DNA from: Felixounavirus LF82P1
DNA length: 64,000 bases
Strand: one strand, 5' to 3'
Sequence record: OZ035762.1
In this document: piece after piece, positions 38,893 to 48,371 of the stretch
How the letters are laid out: each line of letters begins with the position of its first letter
Position numbering within the stretch: position 1 is the first letter of the stretch
The notes under the pieces: generated by a model
The model's database searches: none
The model's input: the letters and a program-made list of their open reading frames with translations, nothing else
What the model was told of the DNA's origin: nothing
Made by a program: the position numbers and the translations under genes

Positions 38893-39678
38893 ATGGGTAT
38901 TGTAAAAATCATCAATGGTGATATCTTTGCTGCATTTGATAAAGGTAAGTTTGACATCATTGGTCATGGTTGTAACTGCATGAACCTAATGGGCGCAGGT
39001 ATCGCTGACAAGATTTCTAAACTTTACCCAAAAGCATATGAGACCGATACAGAAGTTTATCTCTATGCAGGTGGTATAGGTCACAAACCCTGTGAGAATT
39101 TACTAGGTAATTTCTCTGTAGCACGCTTAAAACAAGGTCGTATAGCTAACCTTTACACTCAGCTTAAGACTGGTAAAGATGCCCGATACAGTGCTTTAGA
39201 GTCATCTTTGAAACAGCTTAACAGATACTGTGAAGTCAATCAGTTGAAGAAAGTTGGTTTACCTATGATTGGTGCAGGTATCGGTGGACTTGACCCTCAA
39301 GCCGTCACAGTTATCATCAATCAGGTGATGAAGAGTGTAGATGTTTATCTATATGTCTATGAAGGAGAGATGTACCACAAGTTACTCTCAGGTTGGAAGA
39401 ACTACTGTGAACCAGAATACTTTGCAGGTGTAGCAGTGTTCACAGATAACGCAGTTACCCTCTTCAGACGAAGAAAAGGTAAGATACATCAAAGTAACCC
39501 TCCGGTTGAAAAGATGTCTCTAAGTAACGCTCTAGTTACCCACCTGTCAAAGAGCAATCACAGAATTGCTGTAACATTTGGTAGTGATGCAGAAGCTTAT
39601 ATCTATGCAAGAACTGATGAGGATATTGAGGCAATCTTCTCTTCACCAGAAGTTACCTTCTTAGACGCAAAGAACTAA
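38893..39678 (+). CDS. macro-domain protein (ADP-ribose binding/processing)
   Basis: 261 aa; N-terminal IINGDIF..DIIGHGCNC..GAGIA pattern typical of macro domains; second Gly-rich stretch MIGAGIGG. Confidence 0.5.
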   Translation: MGIVKIINGDIFAAFDKGKFDIIGHGCNCMNLMGAGIADKISKLYPKAYETDTEVYLYAGGIGHKPCENLLGNFSVARLKQGRIANLYTQLKTGKDARYSALESSLKQLNRYCEVNQLKKVGLPMIGAGIGGLDPQAVTVIINQVMKSVDVYLYVYEGEMYHKLLSGWKNYCEPEYFAGVAVFTDNAVTLFRRRKGKIHQSNPPVEKMSLSNALVTHLSKSNHRIAVTFGSDAEAYIYARTDEDIEAIFSSPEVTFLDAKN

Positions 39679-40106
39679 GAAACTCTGTAGGATATTCACA
39701 ATAGCCTAAGCCTTTCTTATCTGGTAAATTTTTCAGGTAAGGAGGGCTTTTTCATTTCAGATTTGTGCAGGTAGATTTCTCTACAGAACTCTATAGAGAA
39801 AATTTTGAACTCCAAAGAGAAAATTCATTTTCAAACTGTGCAGGTAATCTCCAAAGAGCTTTTTCATTTTCAAAACGTGCAGACCCCGCTCAGGTCGGGC
39901 AAGAAAAATCATTTTAGAATTGTGCAGGTAGGTTTTTATAGACAGCCAGCCCAACCCCTCTCCCCCTCTTACTCCCCCTCTCCCCAAAAGTCAAGAGAAA
40001 AATTTGTAGCGGATTGAAAAATAATTCTTGATTTGCGTTCTGTTTTGTGGTAGTCGTGCGCACCCGTTTCATTACAGTTTTGCCAAAAATATTTTTAAAA
40101 TTTTTA

Positions 40107-40135
40107 TTGACTCTTTGAACGTGGTTATCTAATAT
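40107..40135 (+). promoter_or_regulatory. sigma70-like promoter TTGACT-N17-TAATAT
   Basis: Consensus-like -35/-10 with 17-nt spacer immediately upstream of first conserved leader cassette. Confidence 0.5.
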
Positions 40136-40198
40136 TTACATCAACGGGGAGGGAATGACCTTTCCCACTAAATAAAATCCTAAACTGGAGATTCAAAA

Positions 40199-40387
40199 AT
40201 GGCATCAAGAAAAATTAAAGTTGGCGATGAGGTTAACATTAAGCACGAATACTCTTACAAAATGCTAACTATACGCTCTTATAAGGTTTATCAGGTGGAA
40301 GCTATCCACAAAGATAATACTTTTTCCTTAAAAGGGTATAGCGAACGTTTCCCTGCTGAACTCTTTGAGAAATGGAGCGCGAAATAA
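40199..40387 (+). CDS. hypothetical small protein (array member)
   Basis: 62 aa; preceded by type A cassette. Confidence 0.45.
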   Translation: MASRKIKVGDEVNIKHEYSYKMLTIRSYKVYQVEAIHKDNTFSLKGYSERFPAELFEKWSAK

Positions 40388-40593
40388 TGCTTTACAGTCG
40401 TGAATTGATGGTTACAACTAACGTTAACACAAAGGTAAAACGTTTTTACATGCAAATTTGTGGCGTATGGTCTAGAATATCAGAAGCTGACTATTGCAAC
40501 TATGTAGAAACAGCTATAAACTCTAATTGCTACCTTACAAGAAATACTAAGAATTTTACAAGGCAAACAGCGATTTACTATTACGATAAATAA
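40387..40593 (+). CDS. hypothetical small protein (array member)
   Basis: ORF track 40372 trimmed to ATG overlapping upstream stop (TAATG). Confidence 0.4.
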   Translation: MLYSRELMVTTNVNTKVKRFYMQICGVWSRISEADYCNYVETAINSNCYLTRNTKNFTRQTAIYYYDK

Positions 40594-40683
40594 AAAGTAC
40601 TTTACATGGGGCTTATAGTTCGATAAAGTAAGCCCCAGATAAAGAGCTTTACCAAATTAACCCTTAAACTAGGAGATTCAAAA

Positions 40684-41064
40684 ATGGCATATCGTGCACC
40701 TAAATTCATCAACAAAGACAACTTTCGCAACGCACTGGAGAAGTCACTTGATGAAAATTTTAAAGGCAACATTATCGTTGTTCACGCATTCAATTTTAAG
40801 TATGATGTAAACGGGAATAGAATCAACCATTACACGGCAACCATGTTAGATGGCACACTATCAAGTGAAAAAGCTGTACTGAATGCACTTGCTGGACGTG
40901 GTAAAAACCTGATAAAATGCGATAAGAGACGTTATCAGGGTGGCGCATATGGTTATGATGATGCTATTTATCATCTTGAAAATATGGGCTATCAAGTAGA
41001 AAAAGCTGGAGCATCACAAATCATCGGTAGTGATGGTTATGTAACTATCTTCAAAATTAACTGA
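40684..41064 (+). CDS. hypothetical small protein (array member)
   Basis: 126 aa; type B cassette upstream. Confidence 0.45.
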   Translation: MAYRAPKFINKDNFRNALEKSLDENFKGNIIVVHAFNFKYDVNGNRINHYTATMLDGTLSSEKAVLNALAGRGKNLIKCDKRRYQGGAYGYDDAIYHLENMGYQVEKAGASQIIGSDGYVTIFKIN

Positions 41065-41152
41065 TAAAGTACTTTACAAGGGGCTTATAGTTCGATAAAG
41101 TAAGCCCCAGATAAAGAGCTTTACCACTAAATCCTAAATTGGAGATTCAAAA

Positions 41153-41410
41153 ATGGCTATTATCAAAAACGTTGTAATTCCTGCAAAAACTCGTGATGAC
41201 GCTCGCATCATGGCGAAAAAGTTAGGCGGGAAAGTGGTTGACAACGGAAAACAATCCGCTGTAAGGTGGAACGTGAAGTCGGATAAGCAATTAACCTTAA
41301 AACGTAATTCAAACAACCTTTTTAAAGGTGTAAAATCACTCGGTAAAGTGAACGTGTTTACCAAAAAAGGCTATAAAATGCACTTATCATTAACTGGCAA
41401 TTTAATCTGA
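41153..41410 (+). CDS. hypothetical small protein (array member)
   Basis: 85 aa; type B cassette upstream. Confidence 0.45.
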   Translation: MAIIKNVVIPAKTRDDARIMAKKLGGKVVDNGKQSAVRWNVKSDKQLTLKRNSNNLFKGVKSLGKVNVFTKKGYKMHLSLTGNLI

Positions 41411-41505
41411 TAAAGTACTTTACAAGGGGCTTAAAAGTTGGTATCTTAAGCCCCAGATAAAGAGCTTTACCACTAAATCAAGTCCTTAAACTAGGAGATT
41501 CAAAA

Positions 41506-42018
41506 ATGAAAACTGTAGACGCTACCTTTGAAGTTGTAAAAGAAAAATTTTCCATCATTTACGAAGCGGTAAATTGCTACGAAGCAAGCCATAATCTCGA
41601 TAATTGGGAGTTTACAAACGACCATCAAGGCGGTGTGACTGTTAAAAATCCCAACTGTCAGCGTAATGATTTTAAATATGCAATCCCTTTGCATTACAGC
41701 CTTAAACAGCTTTCAAGTGACTATGCAAAACAAGGCCGGGAAAATCCATCAAAAGAGGCTTACACAAGCTTACAGAAAGAACTAGAAAGAGATTTAGAGG
41801 CTTCAGAATACAACCTTGCCGCGAAAGTTGTCGATGCAAATGGTCAAACAATTTTAGACAGTTTTTATATCGGTTACGCTTTTGATTGGTGCTATAGTGA
41901 CGGCGATGATTTAGATGACAGGCTAAAAGAAGAAGTGAACAACTCAGACGCAGAATCTGAAGTATTAGAACGTTTGGAATCATTAAAAGACTCAGTGATG
42001 AATATCTTTAAGGACTAA
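41506..42018 (+). CDS. hypothetical protein (array member)
   Basis: 170 aa; type B cassette upstream. Confidence 0.45.
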   Translation: MKTVDATFEVVKEKFSIIYEAVNCYEASHNLDNWEFTNDHQGGVTVKNPNCQRNDFKYAIPLHYSLKQLSSDYAKQGRENPSKEAYTSLQKELERDLEASEYNLAAKVVDANGQTILDSFYIGYAFDWCYSDGDDLDDRLKEEVNNSDAESEVLERLESLKDSVMNIFKD

Positions 42019-42106
42019 ATAGATTTCTTTACACGGGGTTATCAAGCTGGTAAGATAGCCCCAGATAAAGAGCTTTACCACTAAATCCTAAACTGGAGAT
42101 TCTAAA

Positions 42107-42403
42107 ATGAAATTATCGAATAAAGTTCGTGAAAATCTAAGCAAGTTACTCAACAAAATTGATTTTATCGAGACATCAAGAAATAGTCATGATGTTATGG
42201 AATGGTTACACGGCAAAATAAAAGGCCGTCGTGTAGTGATTTGCTTATGGAATAGTTGCAGGGAATATAAAAAACCTGTATTGCAAGTTAATATTTATGA
42301 TGATACTTTTAAAAGTCCTGTAAAGTCTAAAAGCGATTTATTAGAATCCTATGAGATAACTGTAAATGGCAAAGTATCACGTAAAGAGGAAACACCATGT
42401 TAA
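42107..42403 (+). CDS. hypothetical small protein (array member)
   Basis: 98 aa; type B cassette upstream. Confidence 0.45.
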   Translation: MKLSNKVRENLSKLLNKIDFIETSRNSHDVMEWLHGKIKGRRVVICLWNSCREYKKPVLQVNIYDDTFKSPVKSKSDLLESYEITVNGKVSRKEETPC

Positions 42404-42729
42404 TGACTGGTATCACTGCAATCATTGCCATTTTCGCGCTATATAAGGCATATAAAGCCTATAATCTAGCAAATAAGGCAATCACACAGCAGGTCAGCAA
42501 TAACCTTGTAGAGAGCTTTCTAGGGCGTCTCAGTGATGAGCAAATAAAGCGGCTAGAGATGAGCTTCAGATACAAAGCGAAAACCTATCAGATAAGTGAC
42601 ATCTTCAAAGATGATTTTCAGTTAATCGATGATTATAATTCACTAATAAATGCTTTAAATATCAGTGACTTAAAAGACTACTACGCTGTAATTGTTCAAG
42701 AATTGAGCAAACGAAAACAAAACTGTTGA
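42397..42729 (+). CDS. hypothetical small membrane protein (array member)
   Basis: 110 aa; N-terminal hydrophobic segment; overlaps upstream stop. Confidence 0.4.
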   Translation: MLMTGITAIIAIFALYKAYKAYNLANKAITQQVSNNLVESFLGRLSDEQIKRLEMSFRYKAKTYQISDIFKDDFQLIDDYNSLINALNISDLKDYYAVIVQELSKRKQNC

Positions 42730-42754
42730 CACTGGTTTTTAGATAGATTAAATT
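42726..42754 (+). promoter_or_regulatory. sigma70-like promoter TTGACA-N17-TAAATT
   Basis: Consensus -35 and A/T-rich -10 just upstream of type A leader. Confidence 0.5.
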
Positions 42755-42817
42755 ACACATCAACGGGGAGGGAATGACCTTCCCCACTAAATAAAGTCCT
42801 AAACTGGAGATTCTAAA

Positions 42818-43021
42818 ATGGCTATTATTAACGGTTTAACCATTGAAACTACACACATCAAAGATATCAAAGTTGGCGATATAGTCCTTTCCCACGGCGT
42901 AGAAAAAACTGTCACTGCAAAGGATATCAAAGAGGATTCTTTCATGGGTAGGACTCTTTTCGGTGATTCTTATTGCTTAGGTTACCTTGCAGTTTTAAAA
43001 GTTGTCAAAAATAACAAATAA
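42818..43021 (+). CDS. hypothetical small protein (array member)
   Basis: 67 aa; type A cassette upstream. Confidence 0.45.
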   Translation: MAIINGLTIETTHIKDIKVGDIVLSHGVEKTVTAKDIKEDSFMGRTLFGDSYCLGYLAVLKVVKNNK

Positions 43022-43105
43022 AGTACTTTACAAGGGGCTTATAAGTCTGTAAAGTAAGCCCCAGATAAAGAGCTTTACACAATCCTTAAACTAGGAGATT
43101 AAAAA

Positions 43106-43354
43106 ATGATGAATTATTTCAATATCCCTGATACCTGCCGACTGTTGACACGAGAAGAAAACTTGGGTAAACCTTTTCTTTACCACATGCCAGATAACAC
43201 ACCAAAAACTTATAGTTACAATGTCAACCGTTTTACCGCATACGCTGCAAAGAACGGTTATAAGTTGGTCACTCAAAAAGTAATGCTGGTTACAATCGCT
43301 GACGAGGTTCCTACGGTTGCAGTTAAACTAATTTTCTCAAAGAAAGTTAAATAA
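43106..43354 (+). CDS. hypothetical small protein (array member)
   Basis: 82 aa; type B cassette upstream. Confidence 0.45.
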   Translation: MMNYFNIPDTCRLLTREENLGKPFLYHMPDNTPKTYSYNVNRFTAYAAKNGYKLVTQKVMLVTIADEVPTVAVKLIFSKKVK

Positions 43355-43438
43355 AGTACTTTACAAGGGGCTTATAGTTCGATAAAGTAAGCCCCAGATA
43401 AAGAGCTTTACACAATCCTTAAACTAGGAGATTCAAAA

Positions 43439-43981
43439 ATGAAATGCTATCACGGAACTACTCAAGAAAATTTCCTCAACCTGATTAATAACGGTGATAA
43501 ACCATCAGGCGCATGGAATTGTTCGGATATGGACGGCAATTTTTACGTGTATCCAGAAAATAAAATCTATGGCGACGATGAGGAAGAAATAGCATCAGAG
43601 GGCATTCAGCAAGCTCTAGGCAATGCCACTATCACCGCAGCTTTTCAGATGAAGACTCAAAATATTGTTATCTTAGAACTCGATATTCCAGAGGATGAGC
43701 TAAATGATGATTATTCTTGTGATAATATGTCGAGTGTAGCAAGTTTTACAGAGTACTTTGATGTAAATTGGATTAAAAAGGTCTATACAACAGAGTTTAA
43801 CGCTATGTATTCACCTTTTTGTCTTCCTTCATTGGATAACCCAAATTTAAACTATCTTGATGAGTCTCTGGAGCTTCTTGCTAAAAGTGTTCAACAGTCG
43901 GACAGTATTCAGGTTTTTTGTGACATCATGGATACACTGACAGGAAACATTGCAGAAGAGGATTTAAAGAGCTTTTTCTAA
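43439..43981 (+). CDS. hypothetical acidic protein (array member)
   Basis: 180 aa; type B cassette upstream. Confidence 0.45.
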   Translation: MKCYHGTTQENFLNLINNGDKPSGAWNCSDMDGNFYVYPENKIYGDDEEEIASEGIQQALGNATITAAFQMKTQNIVILELDIPEDELNDDYSCDNMSSVASFTEYFDVNWIKKVYTTEFNAMYSPFCLPSLDNPNLNYLDESLELLAKSVQQSDSIQVFCDIMDTLTGNIAEEDLKSFF

Positions 43982-44047
43982 AAACCTATGCAATCACCTT
44001 ATAAACACTAATCAGCCCCTTGTAGGGGCTTTTAGAGGGCTTAAATC

Positions 44048-44281
44048 ATGCTTACAACCATTTACCTCATCCTTTCCATCTGTAATGGTCATTCATGTGA
44101 TTTTAAAGGGCTTGAAGAGTTTACAGGAAGTAAAGAAAATGCTATTCAAGTTTGCCAGATAGCAAGACAAGACTATCCCGCTAGTGATGATATACAATGT
44201 TACTTTAAGACAGAAGATGAAGACGGTATCTATTTTGACAGCGTAGATGGTCAGTATGAAATTATCATTGAAAAAGACTAG
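44048..44281 (+). CDS. hypothetical small protein (array member)
   Basis: 77 aa; preceded by hairpin AGCCCCTTGTAGGGGCT rather than conserved cassette. Confidence 0.4.
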   Translation: MLTTIYLILSICNGHSCDFKGLEEFTGSKENAIQVCQIARQDYPASDDIQCYFKTEDEDGIYFDSVDGQYEIIIEKD

Positions 44282-44372
44282 ACAAGCCTGATAAAAATCT
44301 GTAAATTGTCAATCAACGGGGAGGGAATGACCTTCCCCACTAAGTACAATCCTTAAACTAGGAGATTCAAAA

Positions 44373-44714
44373 ATGGCTTATGTAACCGTAATTACCGATA
44401 AAGAAAATTCATCTTGGTCAACTCAAGTAAGTGATAAGATGTCACCTATGCAGTGCCTAAAATACTTTGAACAGTGGAACAAAGGCGAGGACACAAGCCC
44501 CTTTCAAGTGATGCAGATTATCCATGTAGATAACGAAGGGAATAAAACGGTTTTAAATAGTGAGTACTACGCAAGCCGTTTTGAAACGAGAAGTAAAACA
44601 ATGAAGCTTTTACGTGAATCCGGTTACTCCCATATCGCCGCGCTAATCTGGGATGACCTGCTAAAAAGTCAGCGTATCAGCTATGTAAAACCTGAAAAAA
44701 TATTCATCAGTTAA
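44373..44714 (+). CDS. hypothetical small protein (array member)
   Basis: 113 aa; type A cassette upstream. Confidence 0.45.
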   Translation: MAYVTVITDKENSSWSTQVSDKMSPMQCLKYFEQWNKGEDTSPFQVMQIIHVDNEGNKTVLNSEYYASRFETRSKTMKLLRESGYSHIAALIWDDLLKSQRISYVKPEKIFIS

Positions 44715-44933
44715 TCAATAACTTACAAAAAACTTTTAAAAAAGTGTTGACAATACCCATTGACATTGGTAACTTTGTTCGAGGGGGTTATCTAAAAGGG
44801 ATTCACTTAAAAGATTCTTTATAGATAAGCTCAAAAAATTACTTGCAATCAACTATCAAAACAAGTAAATTACTAATCAACGGGAAGGCAATAACCTCCC
44901 CACTAAATAAAGTCCTAAACTGGAGATTCTAAA

Positions 44934-45464
44934 ATGAACAAATTTCAAGCTATCAACTTCATTCGTTCAAATGCTGTAATGTCTAAGCCTGTAAAAGATA
45001 CATACGAATTCCGTTGTAATGGGGTACATTTCGCAACAATCACCAAATCAGAAAACGGGGCTTATTACGTTCATCGTCGTAATGTCTCAACCGTTGTAGT
45101 CTCTCACTTTATGCAAGCTGTAGCGGAATTATTACCGTTATTCTTAGAGATTTATCTAGATGAGTGTAAAAACGTTCACAACCACGTTAAAAACCTTTTA
45201 AACGGTTATAAAATGGCTTATGAACGCTCTATCAAGTCACTAAACAAGTTTTACAATGCACCTGCAAATACTGTTTCAATGGCTTATGATGTAAACGGTG
45301 AGTTAGTTAGTCTCTTTAAAGTGGAAGAAATTAAACTGTATAATTTACGTCCTAGTGGTTACTCTAAGACTCTTGGTGAAGGTTTATCCTTTAATATCAA
45401 GAACTTAGAAAAAACTTTAAAAGACATTGAAAAAGATATTGACGAGACAATCAAAAGTCTGTAA
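44934..45464 (+). CDS. hypothetical protein (array member)
   Basis: 176 aa; variant type A cassette (GGGAAGG..CCTCCCC). Confidence 0.45.
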   Translation: MNKFQAINFIRSNAVMSKPVKDTYEFRCNGVHFATITKSENGAYYVHRRNVSTVVVSHFMQAVAELLPLFLEIYLDECKNVHNHVKNLLNGYKMAYERSIKSLNKFYNAPANTVSMAYDVNGELVSLFKVEEIKLYNLRPSGYSKTLGEGLSFNIKNLEKTLKDIEKDIDETIKSL

Positions 45465-45529
45465 ATTGTCAATCAACGGGGAGGGAATGACCTTCCCCAC
45501 TAAATAAAATCCTAAACTGGAGATTCAAA

Positions 45530-45793
45530 ATGGAACACGTCGAACTGACCACACTTTTACAAATTGCAACTGACAAAGAAGATGTAGCACTGTTTCACCG
45601 TATTGAAAGCGATTTGTTCAATGGTGAAATCATCAAAGAGTCTTACGAAGTTGTCGGATTCAAAGACGGTAAAGCGTTCGGATTCTTTGACCTCGACAAA
45701 GGCAAAGCGGTTACAAAATATGATGTTTTATCTTGTGAGATTCTGACAAAATACAACGAAAAAAGACTTGCAACATACGCCAACATGCAGTAA
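45530..45793 (+). CDS. hypothetical small protein (array member)
   Basis: 87 aa; type A cassette upstream. Confidence 0.45.
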   Translation: MEHVELTTLLQIATDKEDVALFHRIESDLFNGEIIKESYEVVGFKDGKAFGFFDLDKGKAVTKYDVLSCEILTKYNEKRLATYANMQ

Positions 45794-45859
45794 ATTACTA
45801 ATCAACGGGAGGCGATAACCTCCCCACTAAATAAAACCCTTAAACTAGGAGATTCAAAA

Positions 45860-46108
45860 ATGGCAACTATCCGCGCTACTGTCAATGCCTATGGCTGTTA
45901 TACTCTGGACGTTAAATTCGATATTGGTGGAACTGATGAGTGTTTTTCATTAGTGAAGACAGTTATCAAACAAGTTATTCCAGATTATAACCCTACTGAT
46001 GACTTCTGGAAAGATGCTGTAAAAGAGGTATTAAACGACGAGCATCACTATCATTACTGGGGTGACTTGATTGTTTCCCTGTACTACAATAAACAAGGTT
46101 ACAACTAA
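45860..46108 (+). CDS. hypothetical small protein (array member)
   Basis: 82 aa; variant type A cassette upstream. Confidence 0.45.
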   Translation: MATIRATVNAYGCYTLDVKFDIGGTDECFSLVKTVIKQVIPDYNPTDDFWKDAVKEVLNDEHHYHYWGDLIVSLYYNKQGYN

Positions 46109-46146
46109 TCGACGCAGCGGGGCTAAATAGCCCCAGATACCTCAAC

Positions 46147-46169
46147 AGCCCCTCATAGGGGCTTTTTTA
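46147..46169 (+). terminator. rho-independent terminator closing the small-gene array
   Basis: AGCCCCTC-ATAG-GGGCT + TTTTTT; preceded by second hairpin GGGGCTAAATAGCCCC. Confidence 0.6.
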
Positions 46170-46599
46170 CGTCTATCCAATCCTTATACAATCCCTTTCC
46201 CTCACCTTTCCAGAATCTTATCAGACCTTAAAAGCAATAACTCTATAGTCTACGCTATAACCTCTTATCAAATCAACTTAAATATAAGCCCATAACCCGA
46301 AAGGGAAGGGCAACCGTTTAAACGCTCTATAAAGCTCTATAACAGCCTTATCAACCTAACTTAAGGGATTGCATTAACTCACCCTAAAAAGCCCTTTATA
46401 AAGCTTCCCAGAGACTTAAAAGAATCTTATAAGGGTGTAAGCTTTATCGTCTCGTTAGTATTCTTGTGAATATCTAAAAAGGCTTGATAGTGTCTAAAAA
46501 GTATGTTATAGGGGCTATAAAGTTACTTTGAAGTAGCTTAAAAGTTACGTAAAAGAGGCTATAAAGATACGTAAATGCTAGCCCCCTTAACATCTTCTT

Positions 46600-47660
46600 A
46601 ACAAATTCTTAACAATCCCTACACAGTTATGCTTGTTAGAGACTTGTTAGTCCCTTGTTAAATCTCTGTTAAGACCACGTAAAAGCCTTGTAAGAGTCTT
46701 TGGCATAGCCTTTAAAGCTCCTGTAAAGCCTTATAAAAAGGTGTCTGCATAGTTGGGGTGTAATTACTAGGAAGAGGTTTAAAAGAGCTTACAAGGAGCT
46801 ATAGAGAGCTTTTAAAAGGGCTATTTAAAGAGTCACTAAGAGGGAAAGGGAACGATAAGAAAAGAGATAGTGACCGTGTTAATAGCTTGTTAAAAAGATT
46901 AGACACTTGTTAGAAACTTGTTAATTATCTTAACAAAATAACTCTTAAAAATTAACTTGTTAGCTCTTGTTAGTCATCTGTTAAGAGACTATAAAGACCA
47001 TGTATCGACTGTTAAGAACTTGTTACAGCTTTGTTAGTTCTGTTAAGAGTCTGTTAAGACCTCTGAAGAGATGTTAAGAGGATGTAATAGTTGTTAAGAG
47101 ATTGTTAATGATATTTTAAAATTCTGAAAAGGGGGGTGTTACAGGGATGTTAAGGGCTACCAAGCAGATATACATCTTCTACAGATATTTTTCAGTTCCT
47201 TCAGAGACCCTAAAAAATGACTTGATAGTCCTATTTTATAAAAATTTTAAGATTCTGAATAATTACCTATACAGCCTTTTAAAAATACAGGTAATAACAG
47301 GCTTATAAGATACCTTGTTAGTACCGTGTTAGACCTTGTGAGATAAGGTCTGTAAAGATATTCCTGTTAAGTTTGTTAAAACAGTCTATATAGAGGCTTA
47401 GTAGCACCTAGTGAACACCTATAGAGAGTATCATAGCTTACCTAGAGATTAAGAGGTGTATAGGAGCTTCTAAGAGGGTATAGAGAGAGGGTTAAGGTGA
47501 TTGTATAGGTTGTTAAGAAGGCTTGTTAGAGGGCTAGTTAGAAGGGTTATACAGAGGTCTATTAAGACCACTAGATAGATACTAAGATACTATATAGTAC
47601 TATATAACTATATAGAGAGTAAGATTAAGAAGGTTGTTAAGAAGGGTAGATATTTTGTTC
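46600..47660. repeat. ORF-free iteron-like region: more than 30 copies of YTGTTARR (TTGTTAAGA / TTGTTAGA) plus CTATAAAG/ATAGAGAG motifs
   Basis: No ORF of 60 aa or more on either strand between 46109 and 47747; dense short direct repeats in both orientations. Confidence 0.7.
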
Positions 47661-47711
47661 ACATATGATGGTGACCCAGAGGTTGGGACAACCGATAAAA
47701 TTTTATAAAAG

Positions 47712-47734
47712 TAAAAAGCCCCCAATTAAGGAGG
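47712..47734 (-). terminator. rho-independent terminator (minus strand)
   Basis: On minus strand: AGCCTCC-TTAATT-GGGGGCT hairpin followed by T-run. Confidence 0.5.
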
Positions 47735-47747
47735 CTCTTAAGATATT

Positions 47748-48371
47748 TTAAATCAGTGTTTCCAGAACTGTTTTTAGGGATGACTTAGTTGTCTGATAAA
47801 AATGAGTGAATCCGTTGTTATTATCGAATATCTGCATCATGATATCATCTCCCTTGATTGGATACACTCGGATATCATAGTGAAACCCATTAAAGACAGC
47901 AGAACCATTACAGAACACACTAAAATCATCCACTGAGATGTACTCTTCATGACCTGTGATTTTTATACAAACGCCTTTACTCGGTCTCTTAGGGTTGATA
48001 TCTTCCATCACAGAAATACTCTGTCCACCAAGAGATACCATAGTGACCACTTTACGGTTCTTCTGTTTAAAGTACATCTTAACTTTCTGCAAAGTGTCTT
48101 CATAGAATGGATAAGACCTTTCTACAAAGATTCCTTCAAGTGGCTCTTTACCATTTTCAACTTCTCGGTTATGCCGTACTGCAAAGATAATTTGTTCGAA
48201 CCAGTCAAGATTTTCTTCGGAGAGTGCTTCTCGAACATCACTCCAGTCAAGTACTAGGTAGTTACCTTCAACTTCTTTTAAGTTATCTTTTTCCATAGAT
48301 ATCACACCATTATCGTAAAACTTGATATTCTGGTACTGCGAATTTATTACTATTGTTCTTGATGAGGTCAT
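47748..48371 (-). CDS. hypothetical protein
   Basis: ORF track 207 aa; true start may be internal ATG at 48296. Confidence 0.45.
   Translation of the reverse strand: MTSSRTIVINSQYQNIKFYDNGVISMEKDNLKEVEGNYLVLDWSDVREALSEENLDWFEQIIFAVRHNREVENGKEPLEGIFVERSYPFYEDTLQKVKMYFKQKNRKVVTMVSLGGQSISVMEDINPKRPSKGVCIKITGHEEYISVDDFSVFCNGSAVFNGFHYDIRVYPIKGDDIMMQIFDNNNGFTHFYQTTKSSLKTVLETLI

What the first reader, a model, noticed from the sequence alone, without database searches (positions are those of the whole stretch)
40100..46175. Hyperplastic array of 15 small ORFs, each with its own conserved promoter / stem-loop / RBS cassette
Between 40.1 and 46.1 kb nearly every small ORF (62-180 aa, no recognisable domains) is preceded by one of two conserved cassettes ending in the identical translation-initiation context CCTAAACTGGAGATTCAAAAATG. 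Type A has a sigma70-like promoter (e.g. TTGACT-N17-TAATAT at 40107, TTGACA-N17-TAAATT at 42726) followed by the leader hairpin GGGGAGGG-AATGA-CCTTCCCC, whose variants GGGAAGG..CCTCCCC keep pairing. Type B is AAAGTACTTTACAAGGGGCTTATAGTTCGATAAAGTAAGCCCC, with -35-like TTTACA, a hairpin whose stem covaries (GGGGCTTA/TAAGCCCC vs GGGGTTATC/GATAGCCCC), and -10-like TAAAGT. This resembles the promoter-early-stem-loop cassettes of plastic regions in large virulent phages and is a likely reservoir of host-takeover or anti-defence genes.
Basis: partly seen in the sequence, partly recalled or inferred. Interest (0 to 1): 0.65.

Follow-up and report, generated by a model that had tools for sequence, protein, structure and literature searches.

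The report
Repeated promoter-hairpin gene cassettes, Felix-O1-like phage
A 6-kb stretch of a Felix-O1-like E. coli phage carries 15 small genes, 12 of them behind one of two repeated "promoter + RNA hairpin + ribosome site" modules. These modules also appear to act as recombination points where related phages gain and lose genes, an arrangement so far described only in T4-like phages.

Summary
The window is a Felixounavirus. Between 40.1 and 46.17 kb on the + strand lie 15 small ORFs, and 12 are preceded by a repeated cassette: 6 type A and 6 type B. The cassettes occur nowhere else in the 64 kb (12 matches against 0.2 expected).

Across about 190 type B and 124 type A copies from relatives, the conserved positions are those that sigma-70 contacts. 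Type A has an A-tract, TTGACA, a variable 17-nt spacer and TAAATT. Type B has TTTACA, then TAnnnT at 17-18 nt in 68 of 69 variants.

The hairpins are kept through G·U wobbles and a few compensatory changes. They are more stable on the sense strand, so they act as RNA. Neither hairpin has a U-tract.

No record among 256 relatives covers 80% or more of the array, against 210 of 276 for a neighbouring block. Homology breakpoints cluster in the cassettes (24 of 31, P~1e-9). Chimeric and empty cassettes exist.

All 15 proteins lack Pfam domains. One (ORF J) has an ADP-ribosyltransferase fold.

Best reading: PeSL-like early expression and recombination cassettes, a new member of a kind known from T4-like phages. 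Promoter firing and hairpin function remain untested.

The parts
39708..39749 (+). Intrinsic terminator that closes the upstream operon (Felix O1 t13). Left boundary of the array.
   Evidence: 17-pair stem followed by a T-run. Listed as t13 in Whichard 2010.
40090..40198 (+). Type A cassette 1. AT-rich upstream region, -35 TTGACT at 40107, -10 TAATAT at 40130, leader hairpin 40146-40166, initiation site 40179-40201.
40199..40387 (+). ORF A, 62 aa, phrog_15633, function unknown.
40387..40593 (+). ORF B, 68 aa from the ATG at 40387 (TAATG overlap with ORF A). No cassette of its own. phrog_5293.
   Evidence: Orthologues start with ATGCTTTACAG.
40591..40683 (+). Type B cassette 1. Upstream stop codon, -35 TTTACA at 40601, -10 TAAAGT at 40624, hairpin 40608-40636 with outer helix 40600-40644, then leader and initiation site.
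40684..41064 (+). ORF C, 126 aa, phrog_4495.
41062..41152 (+). Type B cassette 2. -35 at 41073, -10 TAAAGT at 41096, hairpin 41080-41108.
41153..41410 (+). ORF D, 85 aa, very basic (pI 10.8), phrog_5089.
41408..41505 (+). Type B cassette 3. -35 at 41419, extended -10 TGG-TATCTT at 41442, hairpin 41426-41454.
41506..42018 (+). ORF E, 170 aa, acidic, phrog_4190. The structure model is confident but has no clear structural relative. The family also occurs in unrelated large phages.
42016..42106 (+). Type B cassette 4, the variant hairpin GGGGTTATC/GATAGCCCC. -35 at 42028, extended -10 TGG-TAAGAT at 42051.
42107..42403 (+). ORF F, 98 aa, phrog_4401. Always paired with ORF G.
42397..42729 (+). ORF G, 110 aa, hydrophobic N-terminus, overlaps ORF F, no cassette. 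Its stop codon TGA lies inside the next -35 hexamer.
42710..42817 (+). Type A cassette 2. A-tract, -35 TTGACA at 42726, -10 TAAATT at 42749, hairpin 42765-42785.
42818..43021 (+). ORF H, 67 aa, phrog_3623.
43019..43105 (+). Type B cassette 5. -35 at 43027, -10 TAAAGT at 43050, hairpin 43034-43062.
43106..43354 (+). ORF I, 82 aa, phrog_9030.
43352..43438 (+). Type B cassette 6. -35 at 43360, -10 at 43383, hairpin 43367-43395. One of the two recombination partners in the LF82P5-type deletion.
43439..43981 (+). ORF J, 180 aa, acidic. Predicted ADP-ribosyltransferase fold. Counterpart by position and length of Bas63 gp107.
   Evidence: Literature.
44014..44030 (+). GC hairpin with a weak T tail between ORF J and ORF K. 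Possibly an internal attenuator.
44048..44281 (+). ORF K, 77 aa, hydrophobic N-terminus, no cassette. Its stop codon TAG lies inside the next -35 hexamer (TAGACA).
44265..44372 (+). Type A cassette 3. -35 TAGACA at 44279, -10 TAAATT at 44302, hairpin 44318-44338.
44373..44714 (+). ORF L, 113 aa, phrog_4318.
44735..44832 (+). Extra module without an ORF. A-tract, TTGACA (44748), 17 nt, TAACTT, then a 49-nt hairpin (44784-44832). Conserved in relatives.
   Evidence: Annotated as promoter plus terminator in ASO1A.
44833..44933 (+). Type A cassette 4. -35 TTGCAA at 44843, -10 TAAATT at 44866, hairpin 44882-44901 with one bulge or mismatch.
44934..45464 (+). ORF M, 176 aa, phrog_4725. Its stop codon TAA forms the first three bases of the next -10 hexamer.
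45425..45529 (+). Type A cassette 5. -35 TTGACG at 45439, -10 TAAATT at 45462, hairpin 45478-45498.
45530..45793 (+). ORF N, 87 aa, phrog_7022. Absent from LF82P3, Felix O1 and Bas63.
45755..45859 (+). Type A cassette 6. -35 TTGCAA at 45768, -10 TAAATT at 45791, hairpin 45807-45825.
45860..46108 (+). ORF O, 82 aa, phrog_4559.
46117..46141 (+). Vestigial type-B-like hairpin (GGGGCTAAATAGCCCCAGATA) at the end of the array.
   Evidence: Read directly from the sequence.
46147..46170 (+). Intrinsic terminator (Felix O1 t23). Right boundary of the array.

Best explanation
The array is the plastic early-gene region of a Felix-O1-like phage. It is built from self-contained expression modules of the form cassette plus one or two small ORFs. 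Each cassette most likely does two jobs.

1. Expression.
- Each cassette carries a host sigma-70 promoter, so each module is transcribed on its own by unmodified E. coli RNA polymerase. It also carries a standard strong ribosome-binding site, GGAG placed 8 nt before the ATG and partly held in a small 3-4 bp hairpin.
- In type A the promoter overlaps the end of the upstream gene. The predicted transcript starts at the CA of the invariant ATCAAC, so the GC-rich hairpin sits about 3 nt from the 5' end. There it would protect the mRNA from 5'-end-dependent decay.
- In type B the hairpin spans the promoter spacer and the -10 hexamer. It therefore exists only in RNA read through from upstream. There it would act as a 3' stabiliser, processing site or attenuator for the upstream cistron, while the cassette's own transcript starts just after it.

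2. Recombination.
- The 90-110 bp of near-identical sequence repeated head-to-tail gives sites for homologous recombination and gene conversion.
- These events delete, insert and swap cassette-bounded genes without breaking their expression signals.

What is shown: the repeats themselves, the promoter-like conservation pattern, hairpin maintenance on the sense strand, variable gene content, and breakpoints and chimeric cassettes.

What is inferred: promoter activity and timing, the start sites, what the hairpins do, and the recombination mechanism.
For: Identity of the window: it is a Felixounavirus.

Not chance: the cassettes are far above expectation and confined to the array.

Type A promoter, from 84 distinct upstream sequences:
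- An A-tract near -45.
- TTGACA conserved at 96/84/96/70/58/69%.
- A 17-nt spacer that is unrelated between cassettes.
- TAAATT conserved at 98/98/92/85/77/100%.
- An invariant ATCAAC.

Type B promoter:
- In the 13-nt hairpin loop the only invariant bases are the T and A of the -10 hexamer; its last T is conserved in 90% or more.
- TAnnnT lies 17 or 18 nt after TTTACA in 68 of 69 distinct variants, with nine or more different inner triplets.
- 34 of 69 variants have a TGn extended -10.
- The scan tool of the 12 window cassettes promoter-like.

Hairpins:
- Type B is paired in 97.8% of cells, with GC to UA at one pair and CG to UG in 30 of 64 sequences.
- All 40 distinct type A hairpins fold.
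- The sense strand is more stable than the antisense for both types (P=0.001 and 6e-5).
- The type B read-through structure has -16 to -20 kcal/mol and z-scores of -2.9 to -6.

Plasticity:
- 0 of 256 records cover 80% or more of the array. The figures are 210 of 276 for the adjacent 6.2-kb block and 201 of 256 for the downstream non-coding region.
- Arrays between the same anchors range from 3.4 to 8.2 kb, with modules present or absent.

Recombination:
- 24 of 31 unique homology breakpoints fall in 25% of the sequence (P=1.4e-9).
- LF82P5 has a single cassette homologous to both 40594-40686 and 43348-43441, in place of seven genes.
- A chimeric cassette occurs where ORF N is missing.
- Identical cassette variants sit at non-orthologous sites within one genome.
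- The same gene sits behind type A in one phage and type B in another.
- Empty cassettes exist.

Deep conservation: the type B cassette next to gene E is about 78% identical in Erwinia phages, where protein E is only about 44% identical.
Against: - No transcription start site or reporter data exist for any Ounavirinae cassette.
- The Felix O1 RT-PCR is mixed. ORFs 16, 20, 21 and 22 peak at 5 min, but 14, 17, 19 and 23 peak at 25 min.
- The type B hexamers are only 9 of 12 matches to the consensus.
- Covariation is modest. Two pairs have changes on both sides, probably from few events. RNAalifold found no consensus for type A because of indels.
- Breakpoints at gene boundaries are also what selection against broken genes would leave, whatever the mechanism.
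- Gene order is largely collinear.
- The invariant leader GAGCTTTAC is not explained.
Confidence: 0.75

Rival explanations
1. The array is a single operon with intercistronic RNA elements. Only the first cassette (40107), and perhaps a few type A sites, are promoters. The type B repeats would be purely RNA-level elements (3' stabilisers, RNase III or RNase E processing sites, or attenuators) fused to a standard ribosome site. Their -35/-10 look would be incidental.
For: - The type B hairpin plus its outer helix is a strong structure that exists only in read-through RNA.
- G·U wobbles show selection at the RNA level.
- The type B hexamers are imperfect at 9 of 12.
- The array is bracketed by terminators, like a single unit.
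Against: - The only invariant loop bases are the T and A of the -10 hexamer, and its last T is conserved in 90% or more.
- TAnnnT keeps its 17-18 nt distance from TTTACA in 68 of 69 variants, whatever the stem variant or loop length.
- Half of the variants carry a TGn extended -10.
An RNA-only role does not predict any of these. The RNA role and the promoter role are also compatible with each other.
Confidence: 0.12
2. The cassettes are operators of a phage-controlled regulon. The invariant stretches (CCCCAGATAAAGAGCTTTAC, ATCAAC plus hairpin, TCCTAAACTGGAGATT) would mainly be binding or cleavage sites for a phage-encoded protein. That protein would switch the whole array on or off together, acting as a translational repressor or a site-specific RNase in the manner of T4 RegA or RegB. 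Promoter activity would be secondary.
For: - A 20-nt stretch is exact in all six type B copies and in 43 stretches of viral contigs.
- The cassette is better conserved than the proteins it drives.
- The initiation site is specific to the array and is not used elsewhere in 64 kb.
- The small hairpin at the ribosome site is kept through a paired T...A insertion in 323 distinct contexts.
Against: - No candidate regulator was identified.
- Part of the invariance is explained by the outer helix CUUUA/UAAAG and by the stem.
- Frequent gene conversion between copies would by itself keep them identical.
- Whichard 2010 found no proteins that modify the polymerase.
Confidence: 0.1
3. The repeats are selfish mobile elements (MITE-like or homing-associated) that spread through intergenic sites. 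Expression signals would be a side effect.
For: - There are many copies per genome.
- A short direct repeat, CTTTAC, flanks the type B hairpin.
- Felix-O1-like phages carry homing endonucleases.
Against: - All copies have the same orientation, sit exactly between a stop codon and the next ATG, and are confined to one array.
- There are no terminal inverted repeats and no transposase.
- No copies were found outside Ounavirinae records, apart from a few with odd labels.
- Type A promoters are embedded in the coding ends of upstream genes.
Confidence: 0.03

Closest known systems
PeSLs (promoter-early stem-loops) of T4-like phages phi1/RB49, and of PST/T4 and nt-1/KVP40 (Arbiol 2010, PMC2839356; Comeau 2014, PMC4122927)
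   Same: - About 100 bp of conserved intergenic sequence with a sigma-70 consensus promoter, an AT-rich upstream region, a G-tract/C-tract stem-loop, a Shine-Dalgarno site and an ATG.
- The stem-loop lies between or over the -35 and -10 hexamers (as in type B) or downstream of the -10 (as in type A).
- The cassettes are concentrated in a hyperplastic region of small genes without known relatives.
- Insertions and deletions between close relatives are bounded by cassettes, and chimeric cassettes sit at the junctions (one search compared).
   Different: - A different phage subfamily (Ounavirinae, about 88 kb).
- Only two discrete, highly uniform sequence classes, arranged in a single array.
- The whole leader and initiation site are conserved, not just the promoter.
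- Type A promoters overlap upstream stop codons.
- Promoter activity, terminator activity and mini-circles were shown by experiment for PeSLs and have not been tested here.
Host-takeover module of Bacillus phage SPO1 (Stewart et al. 1998, from my own knowledge)
   Same: A cluster of about two dozen small early genes, each or nearly each behind a strong host-type promoter and a strong ribosome site, with little similarity to known proteins.
   Different: - It lies in the terminal redundancy of SPO1. Here the physical genome ends are elsewhere.
- No repeated hairpin cassette and no cassette-mediated shuffling was described for it.
Morons of lambdoid phages (gene with its own promoter and terminator; Juhala et al. 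2000, from my own knowledge)
   Same: Independent transcription units for accessory genes, which differ between relatives.
   Different: - Morons are single insertions with unrelated signals and true terminators.
- They are not a tandem array of homologous cassettes.
5'-terminal stabilising stem-loops (E. coli ompA leader; Emory, Bouvet and Belasco 1992, from my own knowledge) and intercistronic 3' stabilisers (REP elements, T7 RNase III sites)
   Same: A stable hairpin within a few nucleotides of the predicted 5' end (type A), or directly after a cistron (type B, in read-through RNA).
   Different: - No half-life or processing data exist here.
- The distance to the 5' end depends on a predicted start site.
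- The type B helix (5 + 9 bp) is shorter than typical RNase III substrates.

Membership tests
PeSL-type regulatory cassette | Sigma-70 consensus-like -35 and -10 hexamers at 16-18 nt spacing | tested here: met
   The hexamers are conserved, the spacers vary, and the spacing is 17 nt (18 nt in 8 type B variants).
PeSL-type regulatory cassette | [quoted passage not shown] | tested here: met
   type A has an A-tract (85-94% A) about 10 nt upstream of the -35; type B has ATAAAGTAC directly upstream, a weaker signal.
PeSL-type regulatory cassette | Stable stem-loop with a G-tract and C-tract, at a set position relative to the promoter | tested here: met
PeSL-type regulatory cassette | Shine-Dalgarno site and start codon of the downstream gene at the 3' end | tested here: met
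PeSL-type regulatory cassette | Concentration in a hyperplastic region of small genes without known relatives | tested here: met
PeSL-type regulatory cassette | Insertions, deletions and replacements between relatives bounded by cassettes, with chimeric cassettes at the junctions | tested here: met
PeSL-type regulatory cassette | Measured promoter activity and attenuator or terminator activity | not testable with these tools
   Needs reporter fusions or start-site mapping.
PeSL-type regulatory cassette | Formation of excised mini-circles | not testable with these tools
   Needs inverse PCR on lysates.
Intrinsic (rho-independent) terminator | GC-rich hairpin followed directly by a U-tract | tested here: not met
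   no cassette hairpin qualifies. The tails are ACTAAAT (type A) and AGATAAAG (type B). The 'terminator' labels in records ASO1A and XTG1 are therefore doubtful.
5'-terminal mRNA stabiliser hairpin | Hairpin within about 4 unpaired nucleotides of the 5' end of the primary transcript | tested here: inconclusive
   The hairpin begins 10 nt after the -10 hexamer. With a start at the CA of ATCAAC it would be 3 nt from the 5' end, but the start site is only predicted.
Integron-like gene cassette array | Site-specific integrase with attI and attC sites | tested here: not met
   No integrase domain among the ORFs of the array. The repeats are promoter-bearing direct repeats, not attC-like.
MITE or transposable element | Terminal inverted repeats, target-site duplications and scattered insertion sites | tested here: not met
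   one orientation, one array, positioned exactly between stop codon and ATG.
ADP-ribosyltransferase superfamily (ORF J only) | ART fold | tested here: met
   [not shown]
ADP-ribosyltransferase superfamily (ORF J only) | Catalytic H-Y-E (or R-S-E) residues and NAD-dependent activity | tested here: inconclusive
   H5-G-T, Y36/Y38 and E80 are conserved and lie on predicted strands. I did not superpose them on a known active site, and the activity is untested.

The most novel reading that the evidence does not exclude
The array could be a gene-capture and gene-display platform that needs no recombinase and keeps its own copies uniform.
- Cassettes would be kept near-identical by gene conversion, so that any cassette-flanked gene can be excised (as a circle), lost, regained or exchanged between co-infecting Ounavirinae.
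- The invariant leaders (the 5' hairpin of type A, and AGAUAAAGAGCUUUAC plus the small hairpin at the ribosome site) would also make all captured genes one post-transcriptional regulon. An as yet unknown phage or host RNA-binding factor would control it.
Probability: 0.2. Interest if true: 0.6.

Novelty: new member of a known kind. Interest (0 to 1): 0.4.

Why it matters
- It extends PeSL-type architecture from T4-like phages to the Felix O1 group. Members of this group are widely used for Salmonella and E. coli typing, biocontrol and therapy. That suggests tandem promoter-hairpin cassettes are a general way for virulent phages to organise and exchange accessory genes.
- It gives a concrete map for engineering: 12 predicted start sites, module boundaries, and natural deletion junctions. 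Whole modules differ between natural relatives, so the cassettes are natural landing pads.
- It corrects database annotation. The cassette hairpins are labelled as terminators in some records.
- It points to candidates for host-takeover or counter-defence screens: ORF J, with an ADP-ribosyltransferase fold, next to a macro-domain gene, and the widely exchanged ORF E.

Tried and rejected
- My first gapped pattern for type B had the wrong spacing and found nothing. A regex and nhmmer harvest replaced it.
I relied on folding each sequence separately and on comparing sense with antisense.
- Rfam gave no family hit. Pfam gave nothing for any of the 15 ORFs. PHROGs gave only families of unknown function.
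- I considered that the array lies at the first-injected end of the genome. Rejected: the mapped terminal repeats of UAB_Phi87 lie in the tRNA region.
- I considered that type B is a T4-like middle promoter, because TACTTTA resembles a MotA box. Rejected: it ends 19 nt before the -10 rather than about 12, and no MotA- or AsiA-like function is known in Felix O1.
- The cassette hairpins as intrinsic terminators: no U-tracts.
- One broad literature query was useless. The phiEa21-4 genome paper is not held. The wV8 paper does not mention repeats or promoters.
- I did not resolve whether any SUSP1 'Fit' gene from CRISPRi-ART lies in the array, because that record has no locus tags.

Full report
**Source and context.**
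The window is a Felix-O1-like E. coli myophage (Felixounavirus, Ounavirinae). A megablast of 40000-46200 hits 256 phage records, nearly all from this group, at up to 97% identity. The array lies directly after a macro-domain gene at 38893-39678 (Pfam Macro) and that gene's terminator at 39708-39749, which is Felix O1 't13'. It ends at the terminator at 46147-46163, which is 't23'. It corresponds to Felix O1 genes 14-23 and to Bas63 genes 98-111.

**Check of the observation.**
There are 15 + strand ORFs of 62-180 aa. Twelve are preceded by a repeat.
- Type A precedes the ATGs at 40199, 42818, 44373, 44934, 45530 and 45860.
- Type B precedes the ATGs at 40684, 41153, 41506, 42107, 43106 and 43439.
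- ORFs B, G and K have no cassette. Each is the second gene of a two-gene module, and F-G and J-K are kept as pairs wherever they occur in relatives.

The initiation motif matches 12 times against 0.20 expected, and the type A leader 4 times against 0 expected. All copies are inside the array and none elsewhere in the 64 kb. The other 11 sites are near-identical.

**Anatomy of type A.**
I harvested 124 copies (40 distinct hairpins, 84 distinct upstream regions) from 56 related loci. The consensus is:
- an A-tract about 10 nt upstream of the -35 hexamer;
- TTGACA, conserved at 96/84/96/70/58/69%;
- a 17-nt spacer whose sequence is unrelated between cassettes;
- TAAATT, conserved at 98/98/92/85/77/100%;
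- an invariant ATCAAC;
- the hairpin.

Conserved hexamers at fixed spacing around a free spacer are the signature of a sigma-70 promoter. In the window the -35 or -10 hexamer often contains the stop codon of the upstream gene: TGA in TTGACA, TAG in TAGACA, TAA in TAAATT. If transcription starts at the CA of ATCAAC (an inference), the hairpin lies 3 nt from the 5' end. All 40 distinct hairpin variants fold, at -7.5 to -16.6 kcal/mol. The differences are mainly G·U wobbles, indels and register shifts.

**Anatomy of type B.**
About 190 copies gave 64 distinct sequences for alignment A1.
- TTTACA is invariant except for one T-to-C change at its second base.
- The stem is paired in 97.8% of cells. 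There is GC to UA at one pair (in the Erwinia/Hafnia lineage) and CG to UG in 30 of 64 sequences.
- A variant class has lost one base pair from both arms.
- Within the 13-nt loop the only invariant bases are the T and A that start the -10 hexamer. The last T of that hexamer is conserved in 90% or more.
- TAnnnT lies 17 nt (60 variants) or 18 nt (8 variants) after TTTACA among 69 distinct variants, with many different inner triplets. 34 of 69 carry a TGn extended -10.

The sequence is therefore constrained in two ways at once, as a promoter and as a hairpin. Folding shows an additional outer helix, CUUUA (part of the -35) paired with UAAAG (in the invariant AGATAAAG), around a 3x3 internal loop. 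The whole structure has -16 to -20 kcal/mol and z-scores of -2.9 to -6. The predicted start is the CA directly after the stem. The hairpin would then be present only in RNA read through from the upstream gene, and the cassette's own leader is essentially unstructured.

**Features common to both types.**
- The hairpins are more stable on the sense strand than on the antisense strand (type A 29 of 39, P=0.001; type B 52 of 74, P=6e-5; about 8% G·U pairs). This points to an RNA function on the transcribed strand.
- Neither hairpin is followed by a U-tract. The 'rho-independent terminator' labels in records ASO1A and XTG1 are therefore unlikely to be right.
- The ribosome site is GGAG placed 8 nt before the ATG. 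It sits in a small hairpin, UCC(U)-AAACU-(A)GGA. The extra U and the extra A always occur together in 323 distinct contexts. This fits a conserved pairing, but close linkage could also explain it.
- No Rfam family matches.

**Plasticity.**
- No record among 256 covers 80% or more of the array in one place; the best is 62%. By comparison, 210 of 276 do so for the neighbouring 6.2-kb rIIA-pnk block, and 201 of 256 for the 1.7-kb region downstream.
- Between the same two anchors the array measures 3.4 kb in LF82P3, 3.7 kb in LF82P5, 4.4 kb in Felix O1, 6.5 kb here and in Bas63, and 8.2 kb in Citrobacter phage Michonne.
- Gene families run A B C D E F G H I J K L M N O here. LF82P5 has A B J K L P M N O, although its flanks are 98.7% identical. 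Felix O1 has B E F G Q R L M O. Bas63 has B C D E F G Q R H J K L M O. In Michonne, D is duplicated and A has moved.
- Order is mostly collinear. The variation lies in the presence or absence of modules.

**Evidence for recombination at the cassettes.**
- Of 31 unique homology breakpoints against nine relatives, 24 lie in cassette zones that make up 25% of the array (P=1.4e-9).
- LF82P5 has one type B cassette homologous to both 40594-40686 and 43348-43441, where this phage has seven genes.
- Where ORF N is absent (LF82P3, Felix O1), ORF O sits behind a chimeric cassette. Its promoter half comes from the end of ORF M and its hairpin is of the ORF O type.
- The same type B variant precedes different genes in different phages. 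Identical variants occur at non-orthologous positions within one genome: in Felix O1 before E and R, which are the 57-bp repeats noted in 2010; in Bas63 before E and J, and before C and R; in Michonne before D, J and L. This pattern indicates gene conversion.
- Genes C, J, L, M and Q are preceded by different cassette types, or by none, in different phages.
- Two 'empty' cassettes, each with an ATG fused directly to the next cassette, mark deletions.
- Caveat: selection against disrupted genes would also enrich breakpoints at gene boundaries.

**Distribution.**
Type B matches 288 phage records, about 5 copies each, including Erwinia and Hafnia Kolesnikvirus. Type A matches 250 records. The cassette upstream of gene E is about 78% identical in Erwinia phages, where protein E is about 44% identical. 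The cassette is thus under stronger constraint than its cargo.

**Proteins.**
- None of the 15 has a Pfam domain. Each matches, over most or all of its length, a PHROG family of unknown function.
- ORF E models well (pLDDT 87) but has no clear structural relative. Its family also occurs in unrelated ~146-kb myophages and in some siphophages, which indicates horizontal exchange.
- ORFs G and K have hydrophobic N-termini, and ORF D is very basic.
- The 'host-takeover or anti-defence' label therefore has one supporting case and is otherwise open.

**Literature.**
- Whichard et al. 2010 listed the 57-bp (type B) and 39-bp (type A promoter) direct repeats of Felix O1 without interpreting them. They reported five other candidate promoters, and RT-PCR peaks at 5 min for ORFs 16, 20, 21 and 22 but at 25 min for ORFs 14, 17, 19 and 23.
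- In the held library, PeSLs are described only for T4-like phages. No paper there applies the concept to Felix-O1-like phages.

**Conclusion.**
The feature is real and far from chance. It is best explained as an array of PeSL-like early expression and recombination cassettes. It meets all six sequence-level defining features of PeSLs tested here. The two experimental features (activity, mini-circles) could not be tested. I rate it a new member of a known kind. Interest is moderate (0.4): it is a clean extension of a known principle to an applied phage group, with testable predictions, but it is not surprising to a specialist.

Noticed in passing
window 39752-39987: Four copies of TCATTTnnnAnnTGTGCAGGTA spaced 39-57 nt apart, followed by a C-rich tract (CCAGCCCAACCCCTCTCCCCCTCTTACTCCCCCTCTCCCC). 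They lie between the upstream terminator and the first cassette promoter and are about 95% conserved in Felix O1. Bas63 annotates two small minus-strand ORFs here. Possibly a protein-binding or regulatory region.
   Followed up: no
window 46200-47700: A 1.5-kb stretch with no ORF above 53 aa. It holds about 20 copies of CTTGTTA(A/G) / TGTTAAGA in both orientations, plus TATAAAG-type repeats. 201 of 256 relatives cover at least 80% of the 46100-47800 query that contains it. It looks like iterons, so it may be an origin of replication or a binding array.
   Followed up: partly
window 44735-44832: A promoter without an ORF (A-tract, TTGACA, 17 nt, TAACTT) followed by a 49-nt hairpin (-20 kcal/mol, z -3.2). 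It is conserved in Felix O1, Bas63 and the LF82 phages. Possibly a small RNA or a cassette that has lost its gene. Some records annotate a 29-aa ORF here.
   Followed up: partly
window 38893-39678 and 43439-43981: A macro-domain gene (Pfam Macro, E=1e-7) sits directly upstream of an array that contains a protein with an ADP-ribosyltransferase fold (ORF J). They could form an ADP-ribosylation writer and eraser pair. They are not adjacent, and ORF J is absent from Felix O1.
   Followed up: partly
[not shown]
   Followed up: partly
L051 (Citrobacter phage Michonne) about 2750-2990; L022 about 1101: 'Empty' cassettes. In Michonne a type B cassette has its ATG fused directly to the next type B cassette, through the shared CTTTACA. 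In L022 a 7-codon stub is fused into the spacer of a type A promoter. Both are scars of gene loss.
   Followed up: yes
window 46117-46141: GGGGCTAAATAGCCCCAGATA after the last ORF looks like a decayed type B hairpin, just before the array's terminator.
   Followed up: no
records MZ726791 (ASO1A) and KT184316 (XTG1): The type A leader hairpins are annotated as rho-independent terminators, and in XTG1 on the minus strand. They have no U-tract and lie directly downstream of a promoter, so these labels are probably wrong.
   Followed up: yes
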